Shown here piece by piece: positions 1,895-45,268 of a DNA stretch of 64,000 bases (within the stretch, counting starts at the first letter, position 1; each line of letters begins with the position of its first letter). The stretch spans positions 22,684-86,683 of the forward strand of contig SCQK01000004.1 of the NCBI GenBank assembly GCA_004321885.1, in the 5' to 3' direction. The DNA comes from Patescibacteria group bacterium (lineage in GTDB: Bacteria > Patescibacteriota > Patescibacteriia > Magasanikbacterales > GWA2-37-8). Under the pieces are notes generated by a model. It ran no database searches. It saw only the letters and a list, made by a program, of their open reading frames with translations, and had not been told where the DNA came from. A program made the translations under genes and the position numbers.

Positions 1895-2656
1895 ATGCCC
1901 AAGCAACCTTATAAAATCATTGCTGAAACTGCGGATTATCTGGTGGTGGAAAAACCGGCCGGCCTGTTGACGCATTCCACCGCCAAACGCGAGCCAGACT
2001 CACTGGCTGAGTTGTTGGCAAAAAAATACCCGGAAATGCGCGAGGTGGGCGACTCCCCGGCCGAACGCCCGGGCATTGCGCACCGGCTGGACAAAGAAGC
2101 CTCGGGCTTGCTGGCGGCGGCGCGCACCCAAAAGATGTTTGAACATTTGAAAAAACAGTTCCAGGAACGAACCGTGGAAAAAGAATACATCGCCCTGGTA
2201 CACGGCAAGGTGGCAAAAGATGTCGGCGAAATAAACTTCCCCATCGGCCGAGCGACGAACAAGGAGAGGATGGCGGCCAGGCCGTTTACCCCTCCCTCGC
2301 CACCACACCAAAAATTTTGGTGTGGTGGCGAGCCCTCCCCTTCTAAGGGGGAGGGGAAAATGGCCAGCACTGAATTTGAGGTGGAAAAGCGATTCATCAA
2401 TTTCACCCTATTGCGCGTCAAAATCCACACCGGCCGCATGCACCAGATTCGCGTTCATTTGCTCGCCTACGGCAACCCGCTCGTCGGCGACCCGCTCTAC
2501 ATCAAAAGAAAACAAAAGCGCAAATGGGACCAGGCGCTGGGACGACTTTTCTTGCACTGCGTAAAATTAGTGTTCAAAGATTTGAATGGGGCGCCGCGAA
2601 CATTTACTTCCCCGTTGCCGCTTGAATTGGAAAATTTTCTTAAAAAAATAAAGTAG
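1895..2656 (+). CDS. RluA-family pseudouridine synthase carrying a 24-aa in-frame insertion encoded by a palindromic repeat
   Basis: HRLDKEASG and GRMHQIRVHL motifs. The insertion FTPPSPPHQKFWCGGEPSPSKGEG sits between conserved segments. Confidence 0.8.
   Translation: MPKQPYKIIAETADYLVVEKPAGLLTHSTAKREPDSLAELLAKKYPEMREVGDSPAERPGIAHRLDKEASGLLAAARTQKMFEHLKKQFQERTVEKEYIALVHGKVAKDVGEINFPIGRATNKERMAARPFTPPSPPHQKFWCGGEPSPSKGEGKMASTEFEVEKRFINFTLLRVKIHTGRMHQIRVHLLAYGNPLVGDPLYIKRKQKRKWDQALGRLFLHCVKLVFKDLNGAPRTFTSPLPLELENFLKKIK
2297..2356. repeat. Near-perfect 35-bp palindrome (TCGCCACCACACC..GGTGTGGTGGCGA) plus a family-A GC-rich palindromic element, in frame inside rluA
   Basis: Arms 2297..2309 and 2319..2331 are exact reverse complements. 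CCCTCCCCTTCTAAGGGGGAGGGG lies at 2333..2356. Confidence 0.8.
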
Positions 2657-3251: not shown

Positions 3252-3276
3252 ATTCCCCCGACTAAGTCGGGGGAAT
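3252..3276. repeat. Family-B hairpin ATTCCCCCGACTAAGTCGGGGGAAT overlapping the rplS ribosome-binding site (RBS) and first ATG
   Basis: A 10-bp perfect stem. The 3' arm GGGGGAA is the only SD-like sequence for rplS. Confidence 0.7.
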
Positions 3277-3619
3277 GACAATTATGACCGAAACAACCAC
3301 AAAAGCGGCAGTCTACAAGCCCGGCATGACCGTGAAGGTGCACCAAAAAATCAGGGAATTAAACGTTAAAGGCGAGGAAAAAGAACGCATTCAGATTTTT
3401 GAAGGCATGATTATCGCGGCCAAGCACGGCAATGAGCCGGGCGCCACCATTACGGTGCGCAAGGTTTCAGGCGGCGTGGGCGTGGAAAAAATTTTCCCGA
3501 TTCATTCGCCCATCATAGAGAAAATAGAGGTGGAGCGCGAATACGCGGTGCGGCGCGCCAAACTCCACTATCTGCGCGACCCGAAATTTAAGAGGCGGCT
3601 GAAAGAGAAAACGAAGTAA
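3275..3619 (+). CDS. rplS: 50S ribosomal protein L19
   Basis: [65 protein letters not shown] matches the L19 family. An alternative start lies at 3284. Confidence 0.85.
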
Positions 3620-3628
3620 ATAAAAAAA

Positions 3629-3705
3629 CTGGCTCCATACTCTGTGTGGAGCCAGTTTGCAATACGGCTCCACAGCCCCGACTAAGTCGGGGACTATGGA
3701 GCCAG
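3629..3705. mobile_element. MITE-like family-B element with two stacked hairpins, in reverse orientation relative to the copies at 13683
   Basis: CTGGCTCCATACTCTGTGTGGAGCCAG + TTTGCAATAC + GGCTCCACAGCCCCGACTAAGTCGGGGACTATGGAGCC. It is the reverse complement of the 13683..13769 unit except for the central loop base. Confidence 0.7.
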
Positions 3706-3733
3706 CTACTGACCAGCGATTGGGAGCGGGATT

Positions 3734-6658
3734 TTATCCTTTTAAGTACTTCCCGGTCCAGCTTTTTTTGCTCTTCATAATATCACGCGGAGCGCCCGCG
3801 GCCACAATCTCTCCGCCCTTGTCCCCGCCCTCTGGCCCCATGTCTATCACCCAATCGGCTGAACGTATCACGTCCAGATTGTGCTCTATCACCAGCACGG
3901 TGTTGCCTTTGGCCACCAATCTGTTCAACACTTCCAACAAATGTTTTATATCTTCAAAATGCAAGCCAGTGGTGGGTTCGTCCAAAATATATAATGAATG
4001 TCCGGACGCGCTGCGCGACAGCTCGGCGGACAGCTTTATTCTCTGGGCTTCGCCGCCCGAAACCGTGGTGGCCGGCTGGCCCAGCTGAACATAGCCCAAA
4101 CCGATTTCGCGCAACACGCCCAACTTGCCGGCGATGGGCGGAACGTCGTTAAAAAAAGCAAAGGCCTCGTCTACGGTCATACGCAAGACATCGGCGATAT
4201 TCTTGTTGCGGTAATGTATCTCCAGGGCCTCGCGATTATAGCGGTCTCCGCCGCACTCATTGCACTGCATGTACACGTCGGCCAAAAATTGCATGGGGAT
4301 GCGCACATAGCCCTCACCGGCGCAGGCCTCGCAACGGCCCCCGCCCTTCACGTTAAAACTGAACTTGCCGGCGTCGTAGCCGTTCATTTTGGCTTCGGGC
4401 AAACCGGCGAACAAATCGCGAATCAAAGTAAACAGCCCCGTGTACGTAGCCGGATTACTGCGCGGGGTGCGGCCGATGGGCGACTGGTCCACGGTAATTA
4501 CTTTGTCAATATTTTCAATGCCTTTAATTTTTTTGTGCTCGCCCGGCAAATCTTTGGCCCGATAAAAATGGCGGGCCAGCTGTCTGCCCAAAATATCCAC
4601 GATGAGCGAAGACTTGCCCGAACCAGACACGCCGGTCACGCACACGAATTTGCCCAAGGGGATGTCGGCGTCCACATTTTTCAAATTAAAGGCCCTGGCG
4701 CCGAGGATAGAAATTTTTTTGTTGGATTTTTGCAGACGCGCCCCCATTTTTATGGGCAGGACGCCCCGGCCGACTAGATACTTTCCCGTAACCGATTTTT
4801 TATTTTTTTTTATCTGTTGTAAACTGCCGGCCGCCACGATTTCGCCGCCGGAGAGGCCGGCGCCCGGCCCCATATCAATTAAATAATCCGCGCCGGCCAT
4901 CATAGCGCTGTCGTGCTCCACCACTATTACAGTGTTGCCCAAATCGCGCAAAAATTTCAGGGCGCCGATGAGTTTGGCGTTGTCTTTGGGATGCAGGCCC
5001 ACCGAAGGCTCGTCTAAAATATATATAATGCCGGTAAGGCCCGACGACAGCTGGCCGGCCAAACGCACGCGCGTCACCTCTCCACCCGAGAGCGTGTTCA
5101 TGGCGCGCCCCAGCGACAAGTATCCCAAGCCCACCTCCTGTAAATTTTGCAAGCGCTTGATTGTTTCTTTGATGATGGTTTCACCGTGCTGGGCAAAAAC
5201 TTTGCCTCCCATCCCCCATTTGTCCCCCCCTCTGGCAGAGGAAGAAAGCTTTTCCAAAACCGACACGGCTTGCCCGGCCGACAGCTCGGAAATATCCGCG
5301 ATGCTGTACTGGCCCAGCTTCACGGCCAATGACTCCACGCGCAAACGTTTGCCATGGCACAGGGAACACACCTGCTCGCGCATGTACTGTTCTATTTCAC
5401 CGCGCACATAATCAGAATCGGTCTCCAAATGCCGCTGGGTCAGATTGGTAATCACCCCGGAAAAAACGGTTTTCTTTCCGTCTATTTCGTATGTCTCGTT
5501 GTCGCCGTACAAAATCAGCTTCATCTGCGCATCGGAAAGTTCTGCTACTGGCGCATTCAGAGAAAAATCATGTTTCTGCGCGACCGCGGCCAGAATTTTT
5601 TGGTACCACGTTTGATTGCCGGTAATGCGGGTCCAGGGCTGGATAGCGCCCTCGGCCAAAGTAAGCCGCTTGTTAGGCGCCACCAGCTCCGGGTCAACTT
5701 CCATGGTCACGCCCAAACCAGTACAACGCGGGCAGGCGCCATAAGGGCTGTTAAAACTAAAACTGCGCATGTCAATCGCCGGCATTACTTTGCCGCATTT
5801 AGCGCACAGCCCTTCGGTGGAAAACAACACTTCCCTCCCCCTTTTTAAGGGGAAGGCGGGGTGGGGGTAAGACGCCGCAATCACACTGCCGTTGCTCAAA
5901 TCCAAGGCCGTCTCCACCATTTTGGCGATGTTGGGCTGTTTCTTGGCATTCTGGGTGGAAATATTTCCCACCACCAGTTCCACGTTGTATTTTTTATTGG
6001 GCAAAAAACCAAAACGCGCGAATTCGTTTAGTTTCATCAGCTCGCCGTTTACCCGCACCGTGTCAAAACCCGACTTTTCCACTTTGTCCAGCAATGCGGC
6101 ATGACTGGGTTCCCCTCCCCCTTTTAGAGCTTGTCCCGAACTTGTTTCGGGAGGGAGGACAGAGGAGGGGGTATTTGGCGAGGATGGGGTCAATGGAGAC
6201 AACACCCACACCTCGGAACTATTCCGCGTCATCTTTCTCACTTCCTCGGTAATCTGGCCGGGCGTAAACGACATCACTGGCACGCCGCAACCGGGGCAGT
6301 ATTGCGCGCCCACGCGCGCGAAGAGCAAACGCAAATAATCGTAAATCTCGGTGATAGTGCCCACGGTGGAACGCGGATTCTGCGAAGAACTTTTCTGGCC
6401 GATGGCGATGGTGGGAGAAAGCCCCTCCACGCTGTCCACGTCCGGCTTGTCGCGCACGTCCATAAACTGGCGCGCGAAAGAAGACAGCGACTCGGCGTAG
6501 CGGCGCTGGCCCTCGGCGTAAATTGTGTCAAAGGCGAGCGAGGATTTTCCCGAACCGGACAAGCCGGTAATCACTACCAGCTTGTTCTTGGGAATTTCCA
6601 CGTTTATATTCTTCAAGTTGTGTACTCTCGCCCCTTTGATGATTATTTTATCAGCCAT
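3734..6658 (-). CDS. uvrA: Excinuclease ABC subunit A (UvrA) with two in-frame family-A repeat insertions
   Basis: 974 aa. Two ABC ATPase modules with Walker [11 protein letters not shown] and [10 protein letters not shown], signature LSGGE twice, and zinc-finger cysteines. Collinear with E. coli UvrA apart from the short inserts. Confidence 0.95.
5832..5868. repeat. Family-A GC-rich palindromic element, in frame in uvrA (encodes ..[15 protein letters not shown]..)
   Basis: CCCTCCCCCTTTTTAAGGGGAAGGCGGGGTGGGGGTA. The uvrA reading frame is uninterrupted. Confidence 0.8.
6112..6173. repeat. Family-A element split by a small internal palindrome, in frame in uvrA (encodes ..[31 protein letters not shown]..)
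   Basis: CCCCTCCCCCTTTT..[AGAGCTTGTCCCGAACTTGTTTCGGGAGGGAGGACAG]..AGGAGGGGGTA. Confidence 0.75.
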
Positions 6659-13675: not shown

Positions 13676-13682
13676 ATAATCG

Positions 13683-13852
13683 CTGGCTCCATAGTCCCCG
13701 ACTAAGTCGGGGCTGTGGAGCCGTATTGCAAACTGGCTCCACACAGAGTATGGAGCCAGCGGGTGTAGAAAATCGCTGGCTCCATAGTCCCCGACTAAGT
13801 CGGGGCTGTGGAGCCGTATTGCAAACTGGCTCCACACAGAGTATGGGGTCAG
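13683..13852. mobile_element. Two tandem MITE-like family-B elements between the convergent genes rnj and ldh
   Basis: Unit 13683..13769 (CTGGCTCCATAGTCCCCGACTAAGTCGGGGCTGTGGAGCCGTATTGCAAACTGGCTCCACACAGAGTATGGAGCCAG) is repeated at 13776..13852 with a degenerate last arm. Confidence 0.8.
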
Positions 13853-13870
13853 CGAGCAAAGGGAGGGGTT

Positions 13871-15243: not shown

Positions 15244-15268
15244 AAACGCCCCTGTTAAGGGGGCGTTT
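15244..15268 (-). terminator. Rho-independent terminator of rnpB
   Basis: AAACGCCCC-TGTTAA-GGGGGCGTTT, followed on the minus strand by a U-rich tract (plus-strand AAACAAAAA at 15232..15243). Confidence 0.6.
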
Positions 15269-15269
15269 G

Positions 15270-15724
15270 TGGTTCATGGTTATAAGCCGAATTTTGTACC
15301 CCGACGTTACGTCGGGGCGATGTTCATTTCTCTGGTCTTGACATTGCTGTCAAAATCTTAGCGAGCGAACTTTTTATCCCGACTAAGTCGGGACTCTGCT
15401 CTTGCGCCAGACAGGGCTTGGCACTCTTCGACGTTGCCGCCGAAGGGAGTATGGTAGCTTTGGTCTCGAGAACCACAACTCCCATACACTTTTCACCTTT
15501 GACGAACCCCGACTAAGTCGGGGTGAACGTCCGCCTGTGGCGGACTCTCATGAATCGCTAGTATTGTCTCTGTGCCGCTTTCCCTACGCCGACGTTGCCG
15601 CCGACGTGGCGGGTGTTACCCGTTGCCTTTTTCTTTACCGGCTAGTTCCGCTAAGGGCGGACAGACGGAAAGGGCGTTCGGACTTTCCTTCCCGACTAAG
15701 TCGGGACGAACATCTGCCACGAAC
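15270..15724 (-). ncRNA. rnpB: RNase P RNA, bacterial type A
   Basis: Minus-strand RNA reads ..GGAAGGAAAGUCCGAAC.. (P4 5' strand), ..GGGUAACACCCGCC.., ..AGGUGAAAAGUG.., ..AUGAACAUCG-CCCCGACGUAACGUCGGGG-UACAAAAUUCGGCUUAUAACC.. (P15-P18 and P4 3' strand; compare E. coli AUGAAUGACUGUCCACGACAGAACCCGGCUUAUCGG). P1 is GUUCGUGG/CCAUGAAC. The ORF-track ORFs 15023..15361 and 15402..15731 lie inside it. Confidence 0.85.
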
Positions 15725-15730
15725 TGATTA

Positions 15731-18335: not shown

Positions 18336-19529
18336 ATGCGCGTTGGCATTGATGTCAGGCCGCTGATGAATGACGTGCGCACCGGCATTGGCGAATACAC
18401 GCATTTTTTGCTGGACACTATTTTTGACATTGATAAAAAGAACGAATATTTTCTGTTTTACAACTCCGGCAAAGATGTCGGCGCCAATATTCCCCAGTGG
18501 ACGCAAAATAATATTCATTATGTCGCGAGCAGATGGCCCAATAAAATTTTCAACGCGTCCATAAAATTTTTCAACCGGCCGCGAATCAAAGAGGTGGACA
18601 TTTTTTTTTCTCCTAATCTCAACTTCACCGCCCTGTCGCCGAAAACAAAATTTATTCTCACGGTTCACGACTTGTCCTTTGAGCTGTTTCCGGAATTTTT
18701 TTCCGCCAAACAGCGGCTGTGGCACAAAATGATAAACCCGCGCAGACAATGCCAGCGGGCCGATATTATTATCGCGCCCTCTGAAAACACCAAGCGGGAT
18801 TTGAGGGAGATATATAATATAGAAGAGAAAAAAATAAAAGTGATTTACCCGGGAATATGTCATCCCGACCCGCCACAGGGCGGGGAGGGATCTCTGTTCA
18901 CGGCTGGCTCCATAATCCCCCCCACAGGGGTGGAGCTAAACTGCAAGCTGGCTCCACAGCCCGCCTTTGGCGGGATTATGGAGCCAGCCAATTCCAATCC
19001 CTACATCCTCTTCCTCGGCACCATTGAGCCGCGCAAAAATATTATCGGCCTGATAGAGGCGTTTGAAAAAGCCTGCCCCTCGCTCCCGGCGCCTTACACC
19101 CTCGTTATCGCCGGGGCCGCGGGCTGGAACAATAAACAGATTTACGAACGCGCCAAAAATTCCCCCATTAAAGATAAAATTAAAATTTTGGGATACGTGC
19201 GGCCGGAAGAAAAGCCGGCTCTGTATGCCGGCGCGGCCTTGTTTTGCTATCCCAGCATTTACGAGGGCTTTGGTTTTCCGGTTTTGGAAGCCATGTCCGC
19301 GGGGACTCCGGTTTTAACCTCAAACCGCTCTTCCCTGCCGGAAATAACGAGCGGCGCCGCGCACCTGGTAAATCCAAACAATGTTTCCGACATGGCCGCA
19401 GGCATAATAAACATTTTAACCAACGAAAAACTGCGCAATTTTTTGAAAGAAAAGGGCCAAGAGCAGGCCGCGAAATTTTTATGGCAAGAAGCGGCGGAAA
19501 AATTTTTAAGCGTTATTCGCTCTTTGTAA
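18336..19529 (+). CDS. Glycosyltransferase family 4 with an in-frame MITE-like (family-B-related) insertion
   Basis: GT4 motifs (LGTIEPRKNI, YEGFGFPVLEAMSAGTPVL). The roughly 30-aa insert SLFTAGSIIPPTGVELNCKLAPQPAFGGIMEPA is encoded by the repeat at 18903..18987. Confidence 0.8.
   Translation: MRVGIDVRPLMNDVRTGIGEYTHFLLDTIFDIDKKNEYFLFYNSGKDVGANIPQWTQNNIHYVASRWPNKIFNASIKFFNRPRIKEVDIFFSPNLNFTALSPKTKFILTVHDLSFELFPEFFSAKQRLWHKMINPRRQCQRADIIIAPSENTKRDLREIYNIEEKKIKVIYPGICHPDPPQGGEGSLFTAGSIIPPTGVELNCKLAPQPAFGGIMEPANSNPYILFLGTIEPRKNIIGLIEAFEKACPSLPAPYTLVIAGAAGWNNKQIYERAKNSPIKDKIKILGYVRPEEKPALYAGAALFCYPSIYEGFGFPVLEAMSAGTPVLTSNRSSLPEITSGAAHLVNPNNVSDMAAGIINILTNEKLRNFLKEKGQEQAAKFLWQEAAEKFLSVIRSL
18903..18987. 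repeat. Variant MITE-like element with CTGGCTCCA..TGGAGCCAG arms, inserted in frame in the GT4 gene
   Basis: CTGGCTCCATAATCCCCCCCACAGGGGTGGAGC + TAAACTGCAAG + CTGGCTCCACAGCCCGCCTTTGGCGGGATTATGGAGCCAG. It shares its outer arms with the units at 3629 and 13683. Confidence 0.75.
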
Positions 19530-26056: not shown

Positions 26057-26165
26057 CCCCTCCCCTTGATATCTGCGGATATTTACTCATTCGTTCGGAA
26101 GTAAAAGTATAAACTTTTACTTCACTCACTCATTTCGTAAATAAGGGGAGGGTTAGGGAGGGGTA
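26057..26165. repeat. Composite: a family-A element (CCCCTCCCCTTGAT ... ATAAGGGGAGGGTTAGGGAGGGGTA) split by a 70-bp AT-rich GAGTGA-family element
   Basis: Left half at 26057..26070 and right half at 26141..26165. The insert at 26071..26136 contains the palindrome GAAGTAAAAGT-ATA-AACTTTTACTTC and ATATCTGCGGATAT. The right half encodes the miaB C-terminus LPLPNPPLIYEMSE. Confidence 0.75.
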
Positions 26166-27456
26166 AAATAATTTCACCCTTTAAGACCCAAACATCAGCG
26201 GAAGTAATCTTAACATCCAAAATTTTTCCAATCAAATTTTTTGCGCCGGCAAACTGCGCGAGCTTCATTTCCGAAGAGTTGCCCGAGCAAATCCCTGCCT
26301 CGCATTTGTCCGCCAATACCGAAACTGTTTTGCCGATGTATTTTTGATTTTTGCGATAAGTTGTTTCTTCCATCAATTCTTGTAAAATCTGCCAGCGGCG
26401 CTTTTTTTCTAGGCGCGGCACATCATCTTTGAAGGCCCTGGCCGCGGCCGTCCCACTGCGCTGACTATACATGGCCGTGTAGGAAATGTCAAAATCACAC
26501 TCTTTGTACAGAGCCACCGTGTTTTGAAACTGTTTCTCGGTCTCGCCGCAAAAACCCGCGATAATATCCGTGCCAATGGCGATACTTGGTTTGGCCTGGC
26601 GGATTTTTTTTATCAAATCAATATATTGCTCCCGCGTGTACTGGCGATTCATCTTGCGCAAAATTTCATTATCCCCGCTTTGAACCGGCAGGTGCAGATA
26701 ATTCACCTGCTTGGGCAGTTTCAGCGCCTCTATTTGCGCGTCGGAAAAATAACGCGGGTCCGCGGCGGTAAAATGCAAGCGCTCCAACCCAGCCAACTTA
26801 TTCAGCTCTTTCAGTAAATCGACGAAACTGTCCCCCTCCCCCTTTTTAAGGGGGAGGTTGGGTAGGGGTAAATCCGGATCGCGGTAATTATTCACCACCT
26901 GCCCGAGCAGAATAATTTCTTTCGCGCCATTTTCAATCGCTATTTTTACCTCGTTAATAATTTCTTTGGCCGGCCGGTTTTTCTCGCGGCCGCGCGCCTG
27001 CGGCACCACGCAATAGGTGCAATAATTATCACAGCCGGTCTGAATAGTGATAAACGTTTGAAATCTACTCGTTCGCGCCGGCGCCAACTCTAAATAATCT
27101 CCAAGGTCAGCGCCTCCCAGCCATCTTGACAGCACCCCCATTTCGTGTATCGGAAAATACAAGTCAACCCCTTTTAGCCTGCTTTTTAACTTCCCGTCTT
27201 TGTCGCGGCCCGGCATACAGCCGGTAACAGCGATTGTCAAATCCGGCTTTTTTGCCTTAAGTTGGCTCCAATTTCGCACTAGCCCGTGAACGCGGTCTTC
27301 GGCGCTTTGGCGCACCGAGCAGGTATTGACAATTAGTAAATCCGAGTTTTCGGCTTTGGCGCTTCTGGTCATCCCCAAGAAATTCAAAAAACCGGCGATT
27401 CTCTCTGAATCGTTTTTGTTCATCTGACAGCCGAAGGTAACGAGAAAATACTTCAT
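26122..27456 (-). CDS. miaB: tRNA methylthiotransferase, radical-SAM MiaB family
   Basis: MTTase N-terminal domain (FLVTFGCQMNKNDSE), radical-SAM CxxxCxxC (GCDNYCTYCVVP), TRAM C-terminus. Contains an in-frame family-A insert ([16 protein letters not shown]). Confidence 0.85.
   Translation of the reverse strand: MKYFLVTFGCQMNKNDSERIAGFLNFLGMTRSAKAENSDLLIVNTCSVRQSAEDRVHGLVRNWSQLKAKKPDLTIAVTGCMPGRDKDGKLKSRLKGVDLYFPIHEMGVLSRWLGGADLGDYLELAPARTSRFQTFITIQTGCDNYCTYCVVPQARGREKNRPAKEIINEVKIAIENGAKEIILLGQVVNNYRDPDLPLPNLPLKKGEGDSFVDLLKELNKLAGLERLHFTAADPRYFSDAQIEALKLPKQVNYLHLPVQSGDNEILRKMNRQYTREQYIDLIKKIRQAKPSIAIGTDIIAGFCGETEKQFQNTVALYKECDFDISYTAMYSQRSGTAAARAFKDDVPRLEKKRRWQILQELMEETTYRKNQKYIGKTVSVLADKCEAGICSGNSSEMKLAQFAGAKNLIGKILDVKITSADVWVLKGEIILPLPNPPLIYEMSE
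26832..26870. repeat. Family-A element in frame inside miaB
   Basis: CCCCCTCCCCCTTTTTAAGGGGGAGGTTGGGTAGGGGTA. Confidence 0.8.
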
Positions 27457-45253: not shown

Positions 45254-45268
45254 CCCGACTCAGTCGGG
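45254..45268. repeat. Short family-B hairpin CCCGACTCAGTCGGG embedded in a larger inverted repeat (GGATGTGTTC..GAACACATCC, 45228..45312)
   Basis: Nested stem-loops that also include GAGGCCTC and CTTTTCCGCGCGCGAAAAG palindromes. Confidence 0.6.

What the first reader, a model, noticed from the sequence alone, without database searches (positions are those of the whole stretch)
18903..18987. A MITE-like element inserted in frame into a GT4 glycosyltransferase
- An 85-bp element with CTGGCTCCA..TGGAGCCAG arms lies inside the ORF.
- It adds about 30 aa (SLFTAGSIIPPTGVELNCKLAPQPAFGGIMEPA) just before the conserved GT4 LGTIEPRKN segment.
- This is another case of a structured repeat tolerated in a coding sequence.
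Basis: seen in the sequence. Interest (0 to 1): 0.55.

Follow-up and report, generated by a model that had tools for sequence, protein, structure and literature searches.

The report
REP hairpin doublet inside glycosyltransferase gene
A small mobile DNA palindrome (a REPIN, the kind moved by a RAYT transposase) sits in frame inside a sugar-transferase gene of an uncultivated Patescibacteria (CPR) bacterium and is translated as a floppy loop between the enzyme's two halves. This kind of insertion is known from other bacteria but has apparently not been described in this group.

Summary
Window 18902-18989 is an 88-nt palindromic element lying in frame in the GT4 glycosyltransferase ORF 18336-19529, where it encodes aa 190-218.

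It is not a classical MITE. It is a REPIN: two inverted REP hairpins (GGCTCCATAG...CTGTGGAGCC) separated by a short spacer. The same window holds four intergenic loci of this family. Related Patescibacteria carry the same units flanking a REP-associated tyrosine transposase (RAYT) gene in 3 of 3 loci examined.

The closest ortholog (65% aa identity, from a different sample) has the same element at the same site. All other orthologs have an ordered linker with a short helix instead. AlphaFold puts the insert in a disordered loop between the two Rossmann domains.

Between the two orthologous copies, 11 substitutions break none of 32 base pairs, and six of them form three compensated pairs. The hairpin is therefore preserved at the nucleic-acid level.

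The same REP family is also in frame in PheT, with filled and empty alleles among close relatives, in a ThiI/tRNA-methyltransferase-like PP-loop protein, and in a reverse transcriptase of other CPR genomes.

Intragenic REP dimers encoding 20-30 aa are already documented in other phyla (Di Nocera 2013; Rickettsia RPEs). This is a new member of a known kind, of moderate interest.

The parts
18336..19529 (+). Host gene: GT4 (GT-B fold) glycosyltransferase, 397 aa. It sits in a conserved cluster: sugar transferase, GT4, GT4, GT4, DUF4012.
   Evidence: ORF list; Pfam; 7988 homologs, and the columns invariant across 30 orthologs (including E310 and E318) are kept; AF2 pLDDT 87; Foldseek matches MshA/BshA/GlgM/PimA; synteny in L003.
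18902..18989 (+). REPIN (REP doublet), 88 nt from outermost pair to outermost pair. Codons 190-218 (18903-18989) encode AGSIIPPTGVELNCKLAPQPAFGGIMEPA.
   Evidence: Inverted repeat I1; fold z = -7.4; same 88-nt element at the same site in ortholog L002; pLDDT below 50 for aa 180-219.
18906..18937 (+). REP unit 1 (degenerate): GGCTCCATAATCCCCCCCACAGGGG-TGGAGCT. It has a 3-nt deletion in the right arm and a 3-nt longer loop than the L002 copy.
   Evidence: Covariance-model hit 18901-18942(+), 37.6 bits (the unit was in the training set); alignment A2; comparison with L002.
18938..18949 (+). Spacer between the two units (AAACTGCAAGCT), carrying the family's conserved TGCAA core.
   Evidence: The same 'TTGCAA/ATGCAA' spacer is seen in intergenic doublets, and split on either side of the RAYT gene in L008.
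18950..18985 (-). REP unit 2 (intact, inverted): GGCTCCACAGCCCGCCTTTGGCGGGATTATGGAGCC.
   Evidence: Regex; covariance-model hit 18945-18990(-), 49.7 bits; the apical stem CCGCC/GGCGG is shared only with the L002 copy.
18862..18891 (+). A second GC-rich hairpin in the same linker: ATCCCGACCCGCCACAGGGCGGGGAGGGAT. It is part of a 42-nt stretch (14 codons, HPDPPQGGEGSLFT) that ortholog L002 lacks. Single copy in the window; origin unresolved.
   Evidence: Inverted repeat I5; L002 comparison; no convincing other copy in the window.
3626..3708 (+). Intergenic REPIN of the same family, between two convergent genes (ORF ending at 3619 and the UvrA-like ORF ending at 3734).
13680..13762 (+). Intergenic REPIN, the first of two tandem doublets between convergent genes.
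13773..13855 (+). Intergenic REPIN, the second tandem doublet. Its partner unit is degenerate.
45110..45157 (-). A single intergenic REP unit of the same family.
   Evidence: 68.7 bits.

Best explanation
The 88-nt element is a REPIN: two inverted copies of a REP hairpin (consensus YGYY-GGCTCCATAGTCCCC-variable apical stem-loop-GGGGCTGTGGAGCC) joined by a short TGCAA-containing spacer. It belongs to a REP-RAYT system that is widespread in Patescibacteria. Such elements are non-autonomous. By analogy with E. coli TnpA-REP and the IS200/IS605 family, they are thought to be cut and moved as single-stranded hairpin DNA by a single-copy HUH/Y1 tyrosine transposase (RAYT) encoded elsewhere in the genome.

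One copy landed in the interdomain linker of this GT4 gene in a common ancestor of the window organism and the L002 organism. It survived because it is in frame, has no stop codon, and lies in a loop that tolerates extra residues. It now stands in for the original short-helix linker and is translated as a roughly 29-aa disordered surface loop between the two Rossmann domains (about 43 aa together with the neighbouring hairpin-coded stretch). The palindrome has been kept intact since then through compensatory changes and indels of 3 nt.

Shown here: family membership, the RAYT association in relatives, the shared orthologous insertion, frame preservation, structure-preserving substitutions, and the predicted disordered position.

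Inferred: the transposition mechanism, that the enzyme is still active, and why the hairpin is preserved.
For: Family membership:
- The window holds four other loci of the repeat. The intergenic copies are 98-100% identical to each other, and the GT4 copy shares the arms and the core.
- A genome scan found the same unit in Falkowbacteria, Doudnabacteria, Peregrinibacteria, Parcubacteria and unclassified Patescibacteria MAGs, plus one MAG labelled Nitrospirae.
- In an alignment of 36 units, 92% of cells are paired, against 31-45% when the partners are slid.

RAYT association:
- In L008 a 180-aa ORF is flanked by inverted units. It scores 103.8 bits against NCBIfam NF047646, REP-associated tyrosine transposase (cutoff 80, E = 7e-30). 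It also matches Pfam Y1_Tnp, and its only PDB hit is 4ER8 TnpA-REP.
- Homologous RAYT genes in L021 and L022, retrieved independently of the motif, are flanked by the same units.

Insertion:
- 118 of 120 orthologs lack REP-coded peptides; only P0001 and P0002 carry them.
- L002 has the same 88-nt element at the same site and in the same frame, with a unit-2 apical stem not seen in any other unit.

Frame constraint:
- The two internal indels are each 3 nt.

Placement:
- pLDDT is below 50 only for aa 180-219, between strands 167-169 and 223-227.
- The insert-free ortholog P0033 has an ordered linker with helix 188-191.

Structure preservation:
- There are 11 substitutions, 3 compensated pairs, and 0 of 32 pairs broken. 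Simulation gives P = 3.7e-4 for three or more compensated pairs and P = 1.8e-4 for none broken.
- Third-codon-position identity is 0.76 in the element against 0.54 in the rest of the gene (binomial P = 0.013).

Generality:
- The same family is in frame in PheT (L018), with empty, single-unit and doublet alleles among orthologs of 65-79% identity.
- It is also in frame in a ThiI-like protein and in an RT.
Against: - No RAYT gene was found in the 64-kb window, and the rest of the genome could not be read.
- No empty-site allele of this GT4 gene close enough to define exact insertion boundaries exists in the databases searched.
- Only two orthologous copies exist, so the covariation rests on one pairwise comparison, and the reference structure was derived from one of the two sequences.
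- The flanking tag is YGYY (CGTT/CGCT/CGTC), not the GTAG of classical RAYT-associated REPs.
- Transposition of REPINs by RAYTs has not, to my knowledge, been reconstituted in vivo even in E. coli.
- Translation of the insert and activity of the enzyme were not tested.
Confidence: 0.85

Rival explanations
1. Exaptation: the intragenic hairpin is kept by selection because it does something as nucleic acid. It could act as an mRNA structure that pauses ribosomes exactly at the boundary between the two Rossmann domains, which would help co-translational folding. It could be a processing or stability element, or a DNA site bound by RAYT or by nucleoid proteins. This would sit on top of the REPIN origin rather than replace it.
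For: None of 32 pairs is broken, and there are three compensated pairs among 11 substitutions. Two of the compensated changes alter amino acids (V/I and T/I), so pairing was kept at the expense of the peptide. The element diverged 13% against 30% for the rest of the gene, although the peptide is predicted to be disordered. Its position is exactly at the domain boundary.
Against: Quasi-palindrome template-switch mutagenesis (established knowledge) can produce compensated changes with no selection. Only two sequences are available. Unit 1 in the window copy is already degenerate. 23 of 98 orthologs carry unrelated palindromes at the same linker and 75 carry none, which fits tolerance as well as function. 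There is no T-tract or terminator-like site at the element.
Confidence: 0.2
2. Independent insertions: the window lineage and the L002 lineage each acquired a REPIN separately at a hot spot. The element would then be younger than the gene split, which would explain its low divergence without any constraint.
For: The linker is a hot spot for palindromic inserts in this protein family. The element is less diverged than its flanks. PheT shows that presence and absence of the family can turn over among fairly close relatives.
Against: The two copies share site, orientation, frame and 88-nt length. Both genes have lost the IKxKYNLP segment. The two copies share a unit-2 apical stem (CCGCC-TTT-GGCGG) found in none of the other 34 units, including the window's own intergenic copies.
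Confidence: 0.08
3. Classical MITE: a deletion derivative of a DDE-transposase insertion sequence, with terminal inverted repeats and a target-site duplication.
For: The element has long terminal inverted arms, is small, has no coding capacity of its own, and exists in multiple copies.
Against: No direct repeat flanks the element (TTCACG on one side, CAATTC on the other). The 'arms' are halves of two separate REP hairpins. The autonomous partner found in relatives is a Y1/HUH RAYT, not a DDE enzyme. Single units also occur alone.
Confidence: 0.03
4. Artefact or pseudogene: a repeat-induced chimeric assembly, or a dead gene in which the insert has no consequence.
For: Repeats can mis-join metagenomic contigs, and the organism is known only from MAGs.
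Against: The same junctions occur in a second assembly of the same run (L001) and in a different sample (L002, SRR22388194). Both halves of the protein match the same ortholog at about 67% identity. The ORF is intact, and all 30-way invariant residues, including E310 and E318, are kept. Indels inside the element are multiples of 3. Third-position identity of 0.54 against aa identity of 0.67 indicates purifying selection.
Confidence: 0.03
5. Native lineage-specific linker that is palindromic by chance.
For: The closest homolog conserves the segment.
Against: The segment is a recognisable member of a dispersed repeat family, with intergenic copies in the same window and RAYT-flanking copies elsewhere. 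0 of 100 shuffles reach the observed motif count.
Confidence: 0.01

Closest known systems
REP / REPIN-RAYT systems (E. coli, Pseudomonas; Bertels & Rainey 2011, PMC3116915; Bertels et al. 2017, PMC5581495; TnpA-REP structure 4ER8, PMC3479197)
   Same: An imperfect GC-rich palindromic unit. Units arranged as inverted doublets that fold into one long hairpin. A small Y1/HUH RAYT gene flanked by the units. Intergenic copies lying just after the stops of convergent genes. High identity among copies within a genome.
   Different: The host phylum is Patescibacteria/CPR, and I found no paper linking RAYT or REP to this group. The stem is much longer (about 14 bp basal plus a variable apical stem). 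The 5' tag is YGYY rather than GTAG. The basal stem is nearly invariant across several CPR classes. This copy is intragenic.
Intragenic REPs (Di Nocera, De Gregorio & Rocco 2013, PMC3733652: Opitutus terrae, Rickettsia conorii, Thauera, Xanthomonas and others)
   Same: REP singles and dimers lie in frame inside known genes. Dimers encode 20-30 aa. The hosts include tRNA synthetases and repair genes. The authors proposed neutrality through placement in flexible linkers or loops. These are the same behaviours seen here for GT4 and PheT.
   Different: The REP family and the phylum differ. Here an orthologous pair shows structure-preserving evolution, and the insert replaces an ordered linker. Those authors found no dedicated transposase for CGTC-tagged REPs, whereas this CGTY-like-tagged family has a flanked RAYT.
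Rickettsia palindromic elements (RPE; Ogata et al. 2000 Science and 2002 Genome Res, from my own knowledge; summarised in PMC3733652)
   Same: Palindromic repeats inserted in frame in functional protein genes of a small-genome, host-dependent bacterium, and tolerated as surface peptide segments.
   Different: No sequence relationship. RPE-1 is longer (100-150 bp) and has no known transposase. RPE-derived segments generally decay in orthologs, whereas here the pairing is retained.
IS200/IS605 family and their PATE/MITE derivatives
   Same: A Y1/HUH transposase, subterminal imperfect hairpins recognised in single-stranded DNA, and no target-site duplication.
   Different: RAYTs are single-copy genes and form a separate NCBIfam equivalog (103.8 bits for REP_Tyr_transpos against 20.4 bits for transpos_IS200). 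The mobile unit is the hairpin doublet, not the gene.

Membership tests
REP/REPIN-RAYT system | A short imperfect palindromic unit repeated in the genome | tested here: met
   Five loci in the window. 36 units aligned across 21 loci; 92% of cells paired against 31-45% in slid controls. A conserved T.G mismatch in 28 of 35 distinct units.
REP/REPIN-RAYT system | Two units in inverted orientation separated by a short spacer, able to form one long hairpin (REPIN) | tested here: met
   Arms of 21 nt, 95% complementary. MFE -57.9 kcal/mol for the 88 nt, with the outer stem pairing unit 1's left arm to unit 2's right arm. The same layout is seen in the intergenic copies.
REP/REPIN-RAYT system | A RAYT (REP-associated tyrosine transposase) gene flanked by the same REP units | tested here: met
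   Met in related genomes: L008 (NF047646, 103.8 bits against a cutoff of 80), L021 and L022.
REP/REPIN-RAYT system | A RAYT present in the same genome as this element | not testable with these tools
   None in the 64-kb window (regex; tblastn). The rest of the genome was not retrievable.
REP/REPIN-RAYT system | A conserved tetranucleotide tag at the foot of the hairpin (GTAG in classical REPs, CGTC in the second superfamily) | tested here: inconclusive
   The tag is nYGYY: CGCT x6, CGTT x5, CGTC x4, CGCC x3, TGTT/TGTC x7. It is not GTAG and only loosely CGTC. The window GT4 copy has GGCT at both ends.
REP/REPIN-RAYT system | Extragenic location (by name) | tested here: not met
   This copy lies at codons 190-218 of an intact ORF. 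The four other window loci are extragenic. Intragenic REPs are documented exceptions (PMC3733652), so this does not exclude membership.
REP/REPIN-RAYT system | Mobility (excision or insertion) | tested here: inconclusive
   Indirect evidence only. The window's intergenic copies are 98-100% identical. PheT orthologs of 65-79% identity show empty, single-unit and doublet alleles. No excision reads or assays.
Classical MITE (TIR + TSD, DDE-IS derived) | A target-site duplication flanking the element | tested here: not met
   The flanks are ...TTCACG | element | CAATTC..., with no direct repeat. The same holds in L002.
Classical MITE (TIR + TSD, DDE-IS derived) | Ends shared with an autonomous IS that encodes a DDE transposase | tested here: not met
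   The only gene found bounded by these ends is a Y1/HUH RAYT.
GT4 glycosyltransferase (host gene) | GT-B fold with Glyco_transf_4 and Glycos_transf_1 domains, and the C-domain acidic residues conserved in the family | tested here: met
   Pfam E = 1.3e-36 and 2.5e-13. AF2 pTM 0.86. Foldseek matches MshA/BshA/PimA, E down to 7e-21. E310 and E318 are invariant across 30 orthologs.
Known structured RNA family (Rfam) | A match at or above a family's gathering score | tested here: not met
   No hit at the element at gathering threshold. The permissive search gave only generic miRNA-hairpin models at 29 bits or less, against cutoffs of 50-100 bits.

The most novel reading that the evidence does not exclude
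Patescibacteria carry an old, phylum-wide REPIN-RAYT partnership whose hairpins are repeatedly recruited into protein linkers (GT4, PheT and others). Once inside a gene, the hairpin is kept by selection as a nucleic-acid element, for example as a translational pause at a domain boundary, rather than merely tolerated.
Probability: 0.18. Interest if true: 0.65.

Novelty: new member of a known kind. Interest (0 to 1): 0.45.

Why it matters
The result shows that the small genomes of CPR bacteria host an active-looking REPIN-RAYT system, and that its hairpins become parts of proteins, including the essential PheT. This matters for annotating CPR proteins, because many 'lineage-specific insertions' may be repeat-derived. 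It matters for protein-family alignments. It matters for ideas about how mobile palindromes create new linker sequence.

The orthologous GT4 pair is a rare case where an intragenic REPIN can be followed through deep divergence. It indicates that base pairing, not the encoded peptide, is what is conserved.

The family may also give a CGTY-like-tagged REP a dedicated transposase, something Di Nocera et al. (2013) reported as missing for CGTC REPs.

Tried and rejected
- **RAYT in the window.** An HUH/Y motif regex and tblastn with the L008 RAYT found nothing.
- **Extending the contig.** Looking up genes at the window edge failed or returned only short Logan contigs.
- **More GT4 carriers.** A metagenome scan for the GT4-specific unit 2 (CTCCACAGNCCGCCTTTGGCGGNNNTATGGAG) gave 0 hits. 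No further carriers appeared among the top 120 homologs.
- **Rfam.** No family matched at gathering or at the permissive threshold.
- **Terminator role.** There is no T-tract at the element.
- **The upstream 30-nt hairpin (18862-18891).** It has no convincing second copy in the window: 2 matches at up to 3 mismatches, a count reached by 16 of 100 shuffles. Its origin is unresolved.
- **Target site.** No TSD is present. The PheT empty and filled alleles are too diverged at the junction to define the exact cut site.
- **L010.** This 'Nitrospirae' contig shares only the REPIN with the window, not neighbouring genes.
- **Intein or intron.** Considered and dropped. The segment is 29 aa with no splicing motifs, and frame and codon-sized indels are maintained.
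- **Literature.** Searches combining RAYT, REP or MITE with Patescibacteria or CPR found nothing relevant.
Full report
**1. The observation**

Window 18902-18989 contains a strong inverted repeat. Its arms, GGCTGGCTCCATAATCCCCCC and GGCGGGATTATGGAGCCAGCC, are 21 nt long, 95% complementary and 46 nt apart. The arm 16-mer, allowing up to 3 mismatches, occurs 8 times in the window against 0.39 expected, and no shuffle out of 100 reached 8. The 141-nt region folds at -82.8 kcal/mol with z = -7.4.

The repeat lies inside ORF 18336..19529(+), 397 aa. That ORF has Pfam Glyco_transf_4 (aa 87-174) and Glycos_transf_1 (aa 220-376) domains. The element occupies codons 190-218 and encodes AGSIIPPTGVELNCKLAPQPAFGGIMEPA. 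An independent Logan assembly of the same run has the identical sequence (L001).

**2. A dispersed family of hairpin doublets**

BLAST and a covariance model built from 36 units find four more loci in the window: 3626-3708, 13680-13762, 13773-13855 and a single unit at 45110-45157. These intergenic copies are 98-100% identical to each other. Where the context is clear, they sit a few bases after the stop codons of convergent genes.

Each locus is built from one unit: GGCTCCATAGTCCCC, a variable apical stem-loop, then GGGGCTGTGGAGCC. A second unit usually follows in inverted orientation after a spacer containing TGCAA. The GT4 copy has this architecture. Unit 1 (18906-18937) is degenerate. The spacer covers 18938-18949. 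Unit 2 (18950-18985) is intact and inverted.

Across the 36 aligned units, 92% of cells form standard pairs, against 31-45% when the partners are slid by 1-3 columns. The basal stem is almost invariant, the apical stem covaries, and a T.G mismatch is present in 28 of 35 distinct units.

**3. The family is a REP/REPIN-RAYT system of Patescibacteria**

The host protein's homologs place the organism in Patescibacteria, near Magasanikbacteria. One scan of 185,579 species-representative genomes with a 25-base gapped pattern returned 17 loci. They come from Falkowbacteria, Doudnabacteria, Peregrinibacteria, Parcubacteria and unclassified Patescibacteria MAGs, plus one MAG labelled Nitrospirae.

In the Doudnabacteria locus L008, two inverted units (5265-5296 and 5887-5925) flank a 180-aa ORF with HUH and Y motifs. 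This ORF scores 103.8 bits against NCBIfam NF047646, 'REP-associated tyrosine transposase' (cutoff 80, E = 7e-30). It scores only 20.4 bits against IS200 transposase. It matches Pfam Y1_Tnp, and its only PDB relative is 4ER8, E. coli TnpA-REP.

This RAYT has 963 homologs at E of 1e-5 or better. Of those that carry a source name, most are from Patescibacteria, and several are already labelled RayT by JGI. Two of them were fetched without reference to the DNA motif: L021 (Pacebacteria) and L022 (Parcubacteria). Both are flanked by the same GGCTCC units.

The defining features of REP/REPIN-RAYT systems are therefore met in relatives. No RAYT lies in the 64-kb window itself, and the rest of the genome could not be reached.

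**4. It is an insertion, and an old one**

Among 120 orthologs, only the window protein and P0002 contain REP-coded peptides. P0002 is 65% identical and comes from a different sample, SRR22388194. All other orthologs carry 'xxIKxKYNLPxx' before the conserved FILFLGTIEPRKN motif.

[quoted passage not shown] It is also exactly 88 nt long. Its unit-2 apical stem, CCGCC-TTT-GGCGG, occurs in no other unit of the family, not even in the window's own intergenic copies. Both carriers lack the IKxKYNLP segment.

The parsimonious reading is one insertion in a common ancestor, followed by loss of the original linker or replacement at the time of insertion. The window copy has a further 42 nt upstream (14 codons, HPDPPQGGEGSLFT) containing another hairpin (18862-18891) that L002 lacks. 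I could not assign that hairpin to a family.

**5. Where the insert sits in the protein**

An AlphaFold2 model built with 30 orthologs has mean pLDDT 87 and pTM 0.86. Only residues 180-219 fall below 50. They lie between the last strand of the N-terminal Rossmann domain (167-169) and the first strand of the C-terminal one (223-227). Foldseek matches solved GT4 GT-B enzymes such as MshA, BshA, GlgM and PimA.

The insert-free ortholog P0033 has no residue below 50, and its linker contains a short helix at 188-191. All residues invariant across the 30 orthologs, including E310 and E318, are kept in the window protein. The gene lies in a conserved cluster (sugar transferase, GT4, GT4, GT4, DUF4012) also seen in L003. 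The enzyme is therefore probably functional, with the REPIN peptide acting as a floppy interdomain loop. This last step is inferred, not shown.

**6. The hairpin, not the peptide, is conserved**

The two orthologous copies differ by 11 substitutions and two 3-nt indels. The indel sizes indicate that the segment is read by ribosomes. Six of the substitutions form three compensated pairs: G1-C88 becomes C-G, A14-T75 becomes G-C, and C59-G73 becomes T-A. None of the 32 pairs of the window fold is broken in L002.

In 200,000 random placements of 11 substitutions, P(three or more compensated pairs) = 3.7e-4 and P(no pair broken) = 1.8e-4. Two of the compensated changes alter the amino acid. Nucleotide identity is 0.80 in the element and 0.70 elsewhere. 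Third-position identity is 0.76 against 0.54 (P = 0.013).

This is notable for a segment predicted to be disordered. It could reflect selection on an RNA or DNA structure, or the self-correcting template-switch mutagenesis known for quasi-palindromes. With two sequences these cannot be separated.

**7. The phenomenon is general in these genomes**

The same REP family lies in frame in three other proteins:
- The PheT of a Parcubacteria MAG (L018). A full doublet, WLHSPHRSGAVEPGCEPLAHGLHSSVETMEP, sits inside the tRNA_synthFbeta domain and is absent from solved PheT structures.
- A ThiI/tRNA-methyltransferase-like protein (L011).
- A reverse transcriptase (L006).

Among PheT orthologs 65-79% identical to L018, six have an empty site, four have a single unit, and L018 has the doublet. 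DNA of L024 (empty) and of L025 and L026 (unit 2 plus remnant spacer) confirms that these are alleles of one site.

The GT4 linker itself is a hot spot. 23 of 98 orthologs have linkers of 45 aa or more (median 36, minimum 27) that encode peptides typical of other palindromic repeats. In L003 the insert is a different hairpin doublet, GTCATTCCCGC..GCGGGAATCCAG and its inverse.

**8. Comparison with what is known**

REPINs and RAYTs are well described in Proteobacteria (PMC3116915, PMC5581495, PMC3479197). In-frame palindromic repeats are known from Rickettsia (RPEs). Di Nocera et al. 2013 (PMC3733652) showed that GTAG- and CGTC-tagged REPs occur inside genes in several species, that dimers encode 20-30 aa, and that hosts include tRNA synthetases. 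They suggested placement in flexible linkers. The present case fits that description and is a new member of a known kind.

Four things appear to be new:
- The phylum. No paper in the searchable library links RAYT, REP or MITE to Patescibacteria or CPR.
- The unusually long and conserved stem.
- A YGYY tag (often CGTT, CGCT or CGTC) combined with a dedicated RAYT.
- The pairwise evidence for structure-preserving evolution inside a coding region.

**9. Verdict**

The element is a REPIN, not a TIR/TSD MITE. It was inserted in frame in the GT4 interdomain linker, is shared with one ortholog, is translated as a disordered loop, and has been preserved as a palindrome. Interest is moderate (0.45). 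The most novel reading not excluded is that the intragenic hairpin is functional at the nucleic-acid level.

Noticed in passing
window 15267-15725 (-): The RNase P RNA (Rfam RF00010, 131.8 bits) is 459 nt long against a 367-position model. It uses the identical hairpin CCCGACUUAGUCGGG three times: as P3, inside a large insertion in the P12 region, and in the P15-17 region. The same 15-nt hairpin caps the window's intergenic REP units and also occurs at 3257-3271 and 45254-45268.
   Followed up: partly
window 18862-18891: A second GC-rich hairpin (ATCCCGACCCGCCACAGGGCGGGGAGGGAT) lies in the same GT4 linker. It is part of a 42-nt stretch absent from the ortholog in L002, and no other copy was found in the window.
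   Followed up: partly
window 2296-2355, in ORF 1895-2656(+): Two adjacent perfect palindromes lie in frame in an ORF whose sequence looks like an RluD-type pseudouridine synthase (identity not tested). One has a 17-bp stem (CTCGCCACCACACCAAAAATTTTGGTGTGGTGGCGAG). The other is CCCTCCCCTTCTAAGGGGGAGGG.
   Followed up: no
window 11801, 26835, 41220, 42493, 47553 (and 2333): A separate small hairpin family, CCTCCCC(C)TT-nnn-AAGGGG(G)AGG, occurs both between genes and inside ORFs (for example at about aa 200 of ORF 26122-27456).
   Followed up: no
L003 10607-10676, and GT4 orthologs P0003, P0011, P0015, P0031, P0038, P0055, P0074, P0076, P0097 and others: The same GT4 interdomain linker carries unrelated palindrome-derived inserts in 23 of 98 orthologs. 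Examples are 'VIPAKAGIQ...', 'CHCEAKGRSN...' and 'VILSEAKNL...RMT'. A second variable site after about aa 85 also carries such inserts (P0008, P0066).
   Followed up: partly
L018 3413-3513; L024, L025, L026: PheT of related Parcubacteria and Andersenbacteria shows empty, single-unit and doublet alleles of the same REP family at one site inside the tRNA_synthFbeta domain. This is a better-sampled system than GT4 for studying intragenic REPIN evolution.
   Followed up: partly
L010 4581-4671: A contig of a MAG labelled Nitrospirae carries a REPIN about 83% identical to the window's intergenic copies, with one unit 95% identical, but shares nothing else with the window. This could be a mis-binned CPR contig or a horizontal transfer.
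   Followed up: partly
L006 1903-3192 (-): A reverse-transcriptase gene (RVT_1) carries a single REP unit in frame (GSTAPIAIGDYGA), directly preceded by another palindrome-like coded stretch (SSPRDCDEAEDASLQN).
   Followed up: no
L022 1356-2142: In this Parcubacteria genome, the RAYT gene with its flanking REP units sits between uvrC and uvrB.
   Followed up: no
window 38568-38631 (+): Rfam hit to DUF3800-II RNA (RF02961, 67 bits against a cutoff of 43.2).
   Followed up: no
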